Source: Fimbriosthenelais zetlandica
Taxonomy: Eukaryota
Length of the DNA: 64,000 nucleotides
Reading direction: 5' to 3'
NCBI GenBank assembly: GCA_977030845.1
Contig: OZ365109.1
Span: 53,630,001-53,694,000 of the forward strand
Part shown: positions 60,001 through 63,000 of the stretch, piece by piece
Layout: the number at the start of each line of letters is the position of its first letter
Numbering within the stretch: the first letter of the stretch is position 1
Made by a program: the position numbers

Positions 60001-63000
60001 GGTCATGTCTGGTTCACCGGGCTAGACATAGAGAACACAACCACAAAAAATACAAAAACAAAAAACTGCGATACAGGTAACACGGTCCGAATTAAGCCGC
60101 ATGGATGATATATCAGTTTCCCTGTTTGCATTGGCAAATACACTAGGGGGTCGATTATGTATATTTGTGGAGAAACATTATTGGGTGAACTTCAGCTGCA
60201 TTTGCTCAGTATAGGACAATGCAAAGTCAATATTGATACGCTCTTATTAAACCCGGCAGTGTGTACACATATTTGTATGGGGAAACTATATTAGATGTGG
60301 CTTGTAGCAAAGTGTTGGGAAATATGTGAATACTTCAGAATAGGGGGAGAGAAGGCATGACAGTTATTTAGGAAGTCCTATGAGATGCTAGGTTGCTATG
60401 GTTACGTGATATTTGCCATAACACGTCTTTGGTCTCCATGCCAACGGTTTATATCCCCGTCAAATCTCAGTCTGGTTCCATGGATTATTTAGAAACTAAA
60501 TCAAATGAAAGATATGAAAGGAAACAGGCTTGAAAGGAAACAGAGATTGGTTCATAACAATATAATTGTAATGGCAAGAATGACCTATTCCATTTAAATA
60601 GATAAAACAAAATTGTAGCATTTTTATGAATCTGTTCCACTAAATACTGCATGTAGAACCCCTCTCACATAGTTATGAAGCCTATTTCAGGATAGACCCT
60701 TTGTTATGAGTGAACTACATTCCTTCGGGTAAGCCATTACCTCAATCGCAGATCAAAGGAAATGCATCCACCCATGAACCCCAGCCCTGAAGCCTGCCAG
60801 GAGTGAAAACGAGATGAGATGAAAGGCAAGAAGAGATAAACCACAGGTAGGCCAGGGATATGCTGGTACTGAATCCAGCATTGTAATGCCTAATGAGGCA
60901 AGGATATACCAGCATAATTATGGTATTCTGTAGTCATTAAGGGGTATGATCCAGTTATTAAAAGGATCAATATTAACCCGGCAAACTAAGCCTATAGGGG
61001 TTATAATACAAGCCTATGGGATCTGTTACAACAAGGAAGCGCTGCTAATTGGGTCTTAGTTGCAGTTCCCTATTGTTAACATATCAAAGTCAGTGAGAGG
61101 CATAATTCGATCACTGAGGTGGATATATGGACACAATACAATATTCTATATAGGCTTACAGCTTTCTTCATAATCAGTTTAATCTTGGGACTTTTGTACC
61201 TTTTCATGAACACAGACTTGGGGGATCTGCAATGCATTACTGCCTGAGATTGCACCACTTCAATCACTAGATAGATTCCTCTAATTTTGTATCAAAAAGT
61301 GTTATTTTCCCCTCTACAATGGATGGAGATGAATGTGGATTAATGGAGAAGGATTAGGAGAGATCACATTAGTTAGATTGCATTAGATTCATCTCAGTCA
61401 TAGACAATTGGCCTAGGGGATGTAGGGGTGAGGAAGGGGGAATGGGAGGGGGATGTTGGCCTACAGAGTAGAGGGAAATGGGAGACATGTCCTTCGCTTT
61501 GCCTGGGGAGCAGACCTGTTATCACAGGACCCTGGATTGGAGGAGAGGGGAAAAGTGGGGAATGGGAACAGGGAACGGAGAGAGAGATGGGGAGAAAGGG
61601 CTTGGTGAACTGGATGAATTAGGCTGGTTGACAAGGAAGGACATACTCACACAGTAGTGAGTGATATGTTTTATTCATGCTTTATATCCAGGCATTGAGG
61701 AACAAAGCCAGGATGAGGGAAATATGGGAACACCCGTTATGAAAGTCTATGAATGAACTTATCTCCAGTTGTACGCGAATTAATGGAGATAATGGATGAA
61801 GAATACTGCATGTATTTTACTGTGAAGTTATGAATCAATAGGCAGCGTGTATTGTTCTATAGTGCCCTGGGATGAGATGTCCTCAAATGACATACAATAA
61901 TTATGATTTATTGTCAGTATTTCTCCATATGGAAATATTCAGGAATAAATTCCAGCAATATTTGGAATGGCAGCTAATGAAAAGAGTGCTTGGATAAGAG
62001 AATGATTATAATGATCAAATAAATTTGAATAGAATCACATTTTTCAATTTATGGAGGAAATTAAAGATAATTCATGAAGAATGATCGACTGAGGCAATGT
62101 ATTAATATGAAGAATTTCCTCCATTTCCCTGAATATTATTCTGAAATTTACATCTTCTAGGCAAAATAGAAATGTATTTAATGTAATGCATTATTCAGCG
62201 TGTACTTTTCTTATACCAACTAGCAATAGCAGTACACAGATCAGCCATCAGGGGCGTCAAATTATGCATACAAACCTCAGATACGCTGGAATGCACTTTC
62301 AATGTTAATCATATTCATGAATTAGTTTAATGGAATCTCAATGGCATGTTTGTTGAAGCCGGCATGTAAACAAACTCGAGTGCAGAGGATGATTTTATGT
62401 TAATGAGGGTTATCCATCATGTCACGACCTGCCTTCAGCAGCGAGGTTATCCAGAACTGGGTCAAGGTGCTTAGCAATGGGGAAAAGCAAGGTCATATAG
62501 AGGAGCCATTATTGGCAGCAATGGCTGGCAATCTCTGCAGTGCAATCGATGTTAATAACCCACAAAAAAAGCTACAAAAACAGAGATTCCTGTCTAAAAA
62601 CAGAAGTGAAGTTGACAGAGGTATTGGCCTGTGCCTGCCACATTTCTCCACTTTCAGATAATTCAATTCGGAGTTATGCAGCAAGGCCTTTGTTTGCTGA
62701 GCCTTGCTCTTCACAACAGGAGGTTGGCAGTGTTTTTGTCTGATATCATGCGCGTTAACAATGCCCCCTTTGACAATGGGGTCGCTTGGAGAGGGTGTCT
62801 GGCTTGCCCCAAGGGAATGGCCTAATTTGGGAAGCCCCGGGGGTGCTGTGATATTCCCCGTTTCCTCCCCCACTTTTCCCCCTTCCCTCGCGCGTTTCCC
62901 CTGTGGTAATTTTCTGTCATCGTGATTAATATGCTAGGAGTCAGTAGGATCGGGCATGGAGAGTACACCAGGGTCAGTGAGTGCAAATGTGTTACTGCAA

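What the first reader, a model, noticed from the sequence alone, without database searches (positions are those of the whole stretch)
60741..60793. Src-family-like dual acylation start MGGCIS on a Src-regulator homologue
Seen: Gly2, Cys4 and Ser6 followed, via the microexon, by RLRRKSRR. Established: this is the SH4-type myristoyl+palmitoyl+basic signal of Src-family kinases and G-alpha-i subunits; human SRCIN1 begins MGNAPS (recalled). Inference: the scaffold uses the same membrane address as the kinases it regulates. The 18 nt before the ATG are open, so an upstream in-frame exon could mask the signal in some isoforms.
Basis: partly seen in the sequence, partly recalled or inferred. Interest (0 to 1): 0.68.

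Follow-up and report, generated by a model that had tools for sequence, protein, structure and literature searches.

The report
Unverified lipid-anchor start, scaffold gene
The letters that would give an invertebrate relative of the Src-inhibitor scaffold a fatty-acid membrane anchor are really in the DNA, but nothing shows they are an exon or the protein's start, and such motifs occur by chance in this window.

Summary
ATG 60775-60773 opens MGGCISFDLRL, inside a 53-nt AG...GT unit (60793-60741). A 10-nt AG...GT unit (53685-53676) would add (R)RKS and restore the frame into exon 3 (42490-42322, begins RR). The gene is a real invertebrate member of the SRCIN1 / KIAA1217 (sickle tail) / Drosophila CG32809 AIP3-domain family, with 13 homology-supported exons. 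The best relatives are an annelid, scallops and insects, so it is not human.

Nothing supports the start exon itself:
- The Met + N-myristoylation pattern + Cys occurs 8 times among 2927 ATGs of the window.
- The splice sites are ordinary (ranks 63/1059, 36/1130, 14/1059, 60/1130).
- 28 one-step and 161 two-step ATG chains reach exon 3 in frame equally well.
- A second 10-nt unit with better sites also restores the frame, without the basic run.
- Codon usage looks like intron (rank 3306/8482).
- The peptide has no special similarity to what precedes exon 3 in relatives (ranks 4175 and 1760 of 8482).
- 0 of 127 relatives start with such a motif.

Transcript data and genomes of close relatives were not available. 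Best reading: a chance ORF in an intron or 5' flank (about 0.5). A genuine alternative acylated N-terminus stays possible (about 0.2).

The parts
60741..60793 (-). Candidate 53-nt exon of the finding. AG acceptor before 60793, ATG at 60775-60773, reads (ASGLGF)MGGCISFDLRL + AG, GT donor at 60740-60739.
   Evidence: Sequence read. Own-gene splice matrix: acceptor 4.8 (rank 63 of 1059 AG), donor 6.0 (rank 36 of 1130 GT). Codon-usage score -5.24, rank 3306 of 8482. No homology support.
53676..53685 (-). Candidate 10-nt microexon GAGGAAATCG. It completes R12 and gives R K S. It is needed to bring the 35-nt coding part of the first unit into the frame of exon 3.
   Evidence: ctttttcag| ... |gtaaga. 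Acceptor 8.1 (rank 14 of 1059), donor 4.7 (rank 60 of 1130). Two other units also restore the frame: 49868-49859 (acceptor 8.8, donor 7.9) and 43509-43503.
42322..42490 (-). Exon 3, the first homology-supported coding exon (169 nt). It reads RRAEEQKK...GFLRGGRLRSSLPVVRSPNKTLEKPL + G and contains two adjacent Met codons at 42415-42410.
   Evidence: tblastn to insect and scallop relatives, E 1e-7 to 1e-5. Exhaustive search: 14 hits at E<=1e-3, best P0129 at 84% identity with the same exon start after ...FQ.
31644..31842 (-). Exon 4 (199 nt), the most conserved exon: LVFLIHRNETKRALLPNEVTSIDTVRALFV...VYYELEDL.
   Evidence: 406 database proteins at E<=1e-3, best 77% identity, precomputed Pfam AIP3 on most of the 120 listed.
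19265..19448 (-). Exon 5 (DVKDRAVLKIYE...).
   Evidence: tblastn. Boundaries and phase.
12794..12989 (-). Exon 6.
   Evidence: tblastn to P0003. Boundaries.
9400..9565 (-). Exon 7 (QRHSVAYIPE...SRSYHDYY...).
   Evidence: tblastn to P0003 and P0013. Boundaries.
8810..8958 (-). Exon 8 (RMDKMEAQLANLAAWVQTAVV...).
   Evidence: (8 hits: annelid and scallops). Boundaries.
752..3832 (-). Exons 9-14 (3832-3642, 3401-3283, 2924-2794, 2410-2335, 1444-1361, 896-752): the AIP3-domain part.
   Evidence: Pfam AIP3 partial matches on two pieces, E 8.5e-6 and 0.067, colinear in the profile. tblastn. Boundaries and phases consistent. 769 codons counted exon by exon, no stop.
1..525 (-). Exon 15, which runs off the window end.

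Best explanation
The MGGCIS codons are most likely a chance open frame in non-coding DNA. That DNA would be a large intron or the 5' flank of an invertebrate SRCIN1 / sickle-tail / CG32809-family scaffold gene, not the start of the protein.

The gene itself is real, and its first demonstrable coding exon is exon 3 at 42490. The true N-terminus then lies in one of three places:
- in exons upstream of the window end, as in mollusc and insect relatives that carry long N-terminal parts;
- in an unrecognised exon within 42.5-64 kb;
- at the Met pair inside exon 3 (42415-42410); relatives carry a Met at or near this position.

Shown: the letters, the gene family, the exon map, and the lack of any distinguishing signal. 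Inferred: that the unit is not used as an exon.
For: 1. The motif is not rare here. 8 of 2927 ATGs in the window give Met + myristoylation pattern + Cys at residues 3-6.
2. The splice sites are ordinary for the 21.5 kb upstream of exon 3: ranks 63/1059 and 14/1059 (acceptors), 36/1130 and 60/1130 (donors).
3. At those thresholds, 28 ATG units splice directly in frame to exon 3. A further 161 two-step chains (46 different ATGs) do so too, 58 of them through a unit of 30 nt or less.
4. For this very ATG, three micro units restore the frame. The unit at 49868-49859 has better sites and gives no basic run.
5. Codon usage of the 17 codons scores -5.24, rank 3306 of 8482 stop-free windows of the same region. 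That is below the 5th percentile (0.48) of windows in the supported exons, whose median is 5.79.
6. The peptide shows no special similarity to the segments that precede the exon-3 equivalent in relatives: rank 4175 of 8482 against six mollusc-like relatives (five scallop records and the unnamed P0125), and 1760 of 8482 against 23 insect segments. An insect profile did not pick it among its 15 best pieces.
7. 0 of 127 relatives (36 of them 400 aa or longer) have an N-terminus fitting the pattern, and only 2 start with MG.
8. Base -3 before the ATG is T, which I recall as an unfavourable start context.
9. CpG observed/expected is lowest in the window at 60.5-62 kb (0.18-0.21 against a median of 0.45). 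There is no CpG-rich stretch in the 3.2 kb upstream.
10. Five of the six mollusc-like relatives carry conserved N-terminal parts (RRHT[LV]GG and/or K[RK]EAFM...KRYP) before the exon-3 equivalent. None of these is in the window, so coding exons beyond the window end are plausible.
Against: - The unit has both an acceptor and a donor within the score range of true sites of this gene (leave-one-out ranges -4.5 to 13.1 and 3.7 to 11.7).
- 53 + 10 = 63 nt keeps the frame.
- The microexon acceptor is in the top 1.3% of AG sites.
- Insect relatives have a short basic unit that begins with Met (M[GS]..KSRK-like) directly before the exon-3 equivalent. It is internal in some models and N-terminal in others, so a short basic exon at this place has a family precedent.
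- Short first coding exons often have atypical codon usage and evolve fast, so tests 5-7 are weak.
- The splice matrices rest on only 13 and 12 sites.
- No transcript data and no genome of a close relative could be consulted.
Confidence: 0.5

Rival explanations
1. The 53-nt unit is the first coding exon of an isoform from an upstream non-coding exon or internal promoter. Translation starts at 60775. After Met removal, Gly2 is N-myristoylated and Cys4 S-palmitoylated. The basic run R10-R17, built with the 10-nt microexon, adds electrostatic membrane binding. The scaffold would then sit in the same membrane leaflet as Src-family kinases.
For: - The letters fit the N-myristoylation pattern (Gly2, Gly3, Ser6, no Pro7) with Cys4.
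- The frame works through the microexon into exon 3.
- There is no in-frame ATG in the 38 open codons upstream on the genomic strand.
- The family uses many alternative N-termini. Some insect models start with a short basic unit or with Cys-rich N-termini, for example the Diorhabda isoforms P0117 and P0120 and the Cloeon models P0115 and P0116.
- Vertebrate p140Cap is drawn as myristoylated in a review (PMC7904710, Fig. 2 legend).
- SH4-type signals outside kinases are known, for example Vac8 (PMC8107437, passage seen).
Against: - All points 1-9 of the best explanation.
- The basic run depends on one of three possible micro units.
- The canonical Src-family and G-alpha-i signals have the Cys at position 3 (recalled).
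- The unit has its own acceptor, so an upstream exon must exist, and it is unknown whether that exon is coding.
Confidence: 0.2
2. The 53-nt unit plus the 10-nt unit form an internal coding cassette (63 nt, 21 codons, ASGLGFMGGCISFDLRLRRKS) of a longer isoform whose upstream coding exons lie beyond the window end. The Met is then internal, no acylation occurs, and the RRKS would more likely be a basophilic-kinase site than a membrane patch.
For: - 53 + 10 = 63 nt keeps the frame, and all 17 codons of the unit are open.
- The unit has an acceptor.
- Relatives carry RR-x-x-(D-P-x)-RR[AH]T-type basic motifs right before the exon-3 equivalent (RRTRDPARRATVV in scallops, RRDDPRRHTLGG in insects).
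- Insects have an optional basic cassette at this position.
- The window lacks the conserved upstream exons, which are therefore expected further upstream.
- The surroundings are CpG-poor and gene-body-like.
Against: - The similarity rank tests are no better than background.
- Codon usage is intron-like.
- The chance that two lengths add to a multiple of three is one in three.
Confidence: 0.13
3. The unit is transcribed as part of a 5' leader but not spliced at 60741. MGGCISFDLRLR-stop is then a 12-codon upstream ORF, and the main ORF starts further downstream, for example at the Met pair in exon 3.
For: - The frame ends with TAA directly after R12 if the donor is not used.
- Relatives carry a Met at or near the place of the exon-3 Met pair (42415-42410): P0129-P0131, scallops and insects. 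Many fragmentary insect models start there.
Against: - There is no evidence of transcription.
- Exon 3 has a clear acceptor that is shared with P0129, and it is open from its first codon. This fits coding sequence upstream of the Met pair.
Confidence: 0.05

Closest known systems
SH4-type dual-acylation signal of Src-family kinases and G-alpha-i/o subunits
   Different: - The Cys is at position 4, whereas the canonical signals have it at position 3 (recalled).
- It is not shown that the Met is a start codon or that the unit is an exon.
- No enzymatic or localisation evidence exists.
Vertebrate p140Cap (SRCIN1) N-terminal myristoylation
   Same: Same protein family (hits named 'SRC kinase signaling inhibitor 1-like' and 'sickle tail protein-like'). 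A review's Fig. 2 legend marks 'Lipidation (Myristoylation, Myr)' on p140Cap (PMC7904710, passages seen).
   Different: - The review passages I saw give no experiment for it.
- I could not verify the human letters (search 52: 0 papers).
- No homology between the two N-terminal exons was shown.
Optional basic mini-unit of insect CG32809 / AGAP005037 proteins
   Same: A short, Met-initiated, Lys/Arg-rich unit directly before the exon-3 equivalent. It is internal in some models and N-terminal in others (P0074, P0083, P0086, P0104, P0117, P0080).
   Different: - The insect units I checked (MGQPQK..., MGTKSR...) have Lys or Arg at residue 6, which the pattern excludes, and no Cys. I judged this by eye from the listing.
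- The similarity to the window unit is compositional only and failed the rank tests.
Vac8-type SH4 domain on a non-kinase scaffold
   Same: Precedent that a scaffold rather than a kinase carries an N-terminal SH4 acylation domain (PMC8107437, passage seen).
   Different: Unrelated protein family (armadillo repeats, yeast vacuole).

Membership tests
SRCIN1 / KIAA1217 (sickle tail) / CG32809 AIP3-domain scaffold family | AIP3 (PF03915) domain | tested here: met
   Exon by exon only. Two pieces match colinear parts of the profile (positions 207-254, E 8.5e-6; positions 319-358, E 0.067), each below the gathering score on its own. Most relatives found with exons 4 and 8 carry precomputed PF03915. 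The joined protein was not scanned.
SRCIN1 / KIAA1217 (sickle tail) / CG32809 AIP3-domain scaffold family | Conserved N-terminal module (...SSLPVVRSP... exon followed by the ...ETKRALLPNE.TS.DTVRALFV... exon), colinear with the rest of the protein | tested here: met
   Exon 4: 406 hits at E<=1e-3, up to 77% identity. Exon 3: 14 hits at E<=1e-3. tblastn with 14 relatives maps 12-13 colinear exons on the minus strand. Phases are consistent and there is no stop in 769 codons.
SRCIN1 / KIAA1217 (sickle tail) / CG32809 AIP3-domain scaffold family | Binding and inhibition of Src through Csk (EPLYA / EGLYA-type motifs in p140Cap) | not tested
   The motifs are described for p140Cap in PMC7904710. I did not look for them here. 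Function in invertebrates is unknown: CG32809 is listed as an uncharacterised member of the nAChR interactome (PMC12054790).
SH4-type myristoyl + palmitoyl (+ basic) membrane signal | Gly directly after the initiator Met, and fit to the N-myristoyltransferase pattern | tested here: met
   MGGCISF fits the pattern as I recall it (PROSITE PS00008). So do 23 other ATGs of the window.
SH4-type myristoyl + palmitoyl (+ basic) membrane signal | Cys close to the myristoylated Gly (position 3 in the canonical cases) | tested here: inconclusive
   Cys is at position 4, not 3. That positions other than 3 can be acylated is recalled, not tested.
SH4-type myristoyl + palmitoyl (+ basic) membrane signal | The Met is the real translation start of a transcribed, spliced mRNA | not testable with these tools
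   No transcript data. Indirect tests are neutral to negative.
SH4-type myristoyl + palmitoyl (+ basic) membrane signal | Actual lipid attachment and membrane localisation | not testable with these tools
   Needs metabolic labelling and imaging.

The most novel reading that the evidence does not exclude
An invertebrate orthologue of the Src-inhibitory scaffold (SRCIN1 / sickle tail / CG32809) makes, from an alternative 5' end and with a 10-nt microexon, an isoform whose first 17 residues form a complete SH4-like signal: myristoyl-Gly2, palmitoyl-Cys4 and a basic run. The regulator would then be addressed to the same membrane domain as the kinases. Lipidated or basic alternative N-termini would be a recurrent, independently evolved device in this family, alongside the vertebrate p140Cap myristoylation mark, the insect Cys-rich N-termini and the insect basic mini-units.
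Probability: 0.2. Interest if true: 0.45.

Novelty: not a real feature. Interest (0 to 1): 0.17.

Why it matters
If the start were real, it would show that membrane targeting by N-terminal acylation in this scaffold family predates or recurs outside vertebrates. It would also give a simple handle (G2A and C4S mutants) to ask whether co-localisation with Src-family kinases is needed for their inhibition.

As it stands, the value of the check is cautionary. In a 21.5-kb stretch of this AT-rich genome, nearly 200 ATG-to-exon chains of equal formal quality exist. The acylation pattern also appears several times by chance. A plausible-looking lipidation start found by eye therefore carries little weight without transcript or comparative support.

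Tried and rejected
1. Exon 3 as a word-indexed query for longer proteins found nothing (57 candidates, none at E<=0.01). The exhaustive search later gave 14 hits. The four I looked at (P0129, P0130, P0131, P0135) are short genomic-ORF-style pieces that run into intron on both sides, so they do not show what is spliced upstream.
2. I suspected that the unit is homologous to the beetle segment ...YLGMAGQGGPLSRTMDLE. A profile of 21 insect segments did not pick the unit among its 15 best pieces, all with E above 1. The rank test was also negative. Idea dropped.
3. I suspected homology to the scallop segment ...ISGTGSEDGFPIGGRRTRDPA. The rank was 4175 of 8482. Dropped.
4. I looked for the family's conserved upstream exons in the window (RRHTLGG, and KREAFM...KRYP as seen in the hits). 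There was no motif upstream of exon 3, no tblastn match at E<5, and a profile best of E 0.4 on the wrong strand.
5. Pfam on ten long frames of 43.5-63.6 kb, both strands, gave 0 families. So no neighbouring gene marks the 5' border.
6. Neither the two candidate units nor exon 3 lies in an intra-window repeat. Only three small tandem repeats lie elsewhere in 42-64 kb.
7. No CpG island was found anywhere in the window.
8. Literature:
- 'p140Cap' + 'myristoylation': 5 papers. Only a figure legend is relevant.
- 'SRCIN1' + 'myristoylated': 6 papers, judged from the listing only; none looked relevant and none was opened.
- 'p140Cap' + 'myristylation': 0 papers.
- 'MGNAPS': 0 papers.
- PMC9512579 is not held.
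- Supplements were not opened. N-myristoylome tables in supplements could bear on whether p140Cap is really myristoylated.
9. The joined spliced model (53-nt unit + microexon + exon 3 ...) was deliberately not translated, searched or folded. All searches were exon by exon.
The orthologous locus of a related animal therefore stayed unchecked.
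Full report
What is there. The finding lies on the minus strand. Window 60793..60741 is a 53-nt stretch with a pyrimidine-rich AG acceptor in front and a GT donor behind (GAG|gtaatg). It holds an ATG at 60775-60773 followed by codons for G G C I S F D L R L and two bases of a further codon. If the donor is not used, the frame ends with TAA after residue 12.

The splice chain. A 10-nt unit at 53685..53676 (ctttttcag|GAGGAAATCG|gtaaga) would complete Arg12 and add Arg-Lys-Ser. Exon 3 begins in phase 0 at 42490 with Arg-Arg. I checked this exon by exon. The joined model was not translated, searched or folded.

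The gene. The minus strand carries a genuine member of the SRCIN1 / KIAA1217 (sickle tail) / Drosophila CG32809 family.
- Two exon pieces match colinear parts of Pfam AIP3.
- Exon 4 (31842-31644) finds 406 proteins at E<=1e-3. The best are two unnamed proteins at 77%, the annelid Paralvinella palmiformis at 71%, and many insect CG32809 / AGAP005037 proteins at 65-69%.
- Exon 8 finds the annelid and scallop proteins named 'SRC kinase signaling inhibitor 1-like' and 'sickle tail protein-like'.
- Local tblastn with 14 relatives maps colinear exons. With boundaries fixed there are 13 exons with consistent phases (my arithmetic on the boundaries), and no stop in 769 codons.
- The window has no N, about 39% G+C and CpG observed/expected 0.46. 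It is an invertebrate locus, not human.

No homology-supported exon lies upstream of 42490. Of the conserved upstream motifs seen in relatives, RRHTLGG-type motifs were sought by motif scan, tblastn and profile, and the KREAFM...KRYP part by tblastn only. None is in the window.

Is the start exon more than chance? Seven independent checks say no.
1. Motif frequency. Among 2927 ATGs on both strands, 24 fit Met + the N-myristoylation pattern and 8 also have a Cys at residues 3-6. Shuffles give 12.6 +/- 3.3 and 2.65 +/- 1.44.
2. Splice signals. I built matrices from the 13 acceptors and 12 donors of the supported exons. The four sites score 4.8, 6.0, 8.1 and 4.7. That is within the range of true sites, but only ranks 63/1059, 36/1130, 14/1059 and 60/1130 in the 21.5 kb upstream of exon 3.
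3. Uniqueness. At these thresholds, 28 ATG units splice directly in frame to exon 3. A further 161 two-step chains from 46 ATGs do so as well, 58 of them through a unit of 30 nt or less. For the MGGCIS unit itself, three micro units restore the frame. The one at 49868-49859 has better sites (8.8 and 7.9) and would give Ser-Lys-Cys-His instead of the basic run.
4. Codon usage. The 17 codons score -5.24 on a coding-versus-intron codon table of this gene. That is rank 3306 of 8482 stop-free windows of the same region, and below the 5th percentile of windows in supported exons. Those windows were also the training set, so the contrast is somewhat flattering.
5. Similarity to relatives. The peptide ranks 4175 of 8482 against the segments preceding the exon-3 equivalent in six mollusc-like relatives (five scallop records and the unnamed P0125). 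It ranks 1760 of 8482 against 23 insect segments. An insect profile did not pick it among its 15 best pieces.
6. N-termini of relatives. Of 127 proteins (123 starting with Met, 36 of 400 aa or more), 2 start with MG and none fits the pattern.
7. Promoter signs. There is no CpG-rich stretch. 60.5-62 kb has the lowest CpG observed/expected of the window, 0.18-0.21.

The exhaustive search with exon 3 found a close relative's piece (P0129, 84% identity) with the same exon start. It is a genomic-ORF-style fragment and is silent on the upstream exon.

What speaks for it.
- The unit has both splice signals, and 53 + 10 = 63 nt keeps the frame.
- The microexon acceptor is in the top 1.3% of AG sites.
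- The family clearly uses many alternative N-termini.
- Insects have a short Met-initiated basic unit directly before the exon-3 equivalent, internal in some models and N-terminal in others. A few insect models begin with Cys-rich N-termini.
- Vertebrate p140Cap is drawn with a myristoylation mark in a review (PMC7904710, Fig. 2 legend; passages only).

These points make the idea reasonable but do not test this locus.

Verdict.
- Most likely (about 0.5): the MGGCIS frame is a chance ORF in an intron or 5' flank. The true N-terminus would be upstream of the window, in an unrecognised exon, or at the Met pair in exon 3 (42415-42410); relatives carry a Met at or near that position.
- An internal 63-nt cassette, with an internal Met, no acylation and RRKS perhaps a basophilic-kinase site, keeps about 0.13.
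- A 12-codon upstream ORF keeps about 0.05.

Comparison with the known. As a motif it works like an SH4 signal. Membership fails on the untestable defining feature that the Met is a real N-terminus, and the Cys is at position 4 rather than the canonical 3 (recalled). Even if real, it would be a new member of a known kind of signal, on a family whose vertebrate member is already depicted as myristoylated. Hence the low interest score.

What stayed unchecked.

Noticed in passing
window 60439-60371, minus strand: A 23-codon ORF, METKDVLWQISRNH..., lies about 300 nt downstream of the finding. It gave the top score (37; next independent scores 34 and 33) of 8482 17-mers against the N-terminal segments of the mollusc-like relatives. 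By eye it resembles the alternative N-terminus of the scallop protein P0123 (MNETEKVIWRHHNNQ...). By eye, the only GT sites within it are weak and none that keeps the similar part is in frame with exon 3. Probably chance.
   Followed up: partly
window about 31909-31870, minus strand (just upstream of exon 4): The intron sequence directly before exon 4 translates in the exon's frame to ...KLWTFGFDFWT.... This resembles the N-terminus of the closest long relative, P0003 (...RRWSFFDHRT..., which joins straight to the exon-4 equivalent). The window frame has no Met here. It may be a decayed or alternative 5' extension of exon 4.
   Followed up: no
window 62933-62493, minus strand: A 146-codon stop-free frame lies upstream of the finding, without any Met. 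It contains the best codon-usage window of the whole upstream region (score 12.9 at 62906-62856). It has no Pfam match and no similarity to relatives.
   Followed up: partly
   Followed up: yes
relatives P0074, P0083, P0086, P0089, P0104, P0112, P0117, P0120, P0080, P0081, P0087: Insect members carry an optional short basic unit beginning with Met (such as MGQPQKSRK, MSSTRARK, MSTRAQKNKKN) between ...MDLE and the exon-3 equivalent. Some transcript-like models start with it. Two Diorhabda isoforms and two Cloeon models begin with Cys-rich N-termini.
   Followed up: partly
window 42415-42410, minus strand (inside exon 3): Two adjacent Met codons, the second followed by G and preceded by A at -3. 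P0129-P0131, scallops and insects carry a Met at or near this position. This is a possible alternative start.
   Followed up: no
window 29320-29309, minus strand (intron between exons 4 and 5): The frame reads ...RARHTLSGRAEF..., resembling the family's RRHTLGG motif but in the wrong order for the gene. Profile E 1.7. Taken as chance.
   Followed up: partly
window 60501-62000: Lowest CpG observed/expected of the window (0.18-0.21 against a median of 0.45), together with a strong G-over-C skew on the plus strand in 60-62 kb.
   Followed up: no
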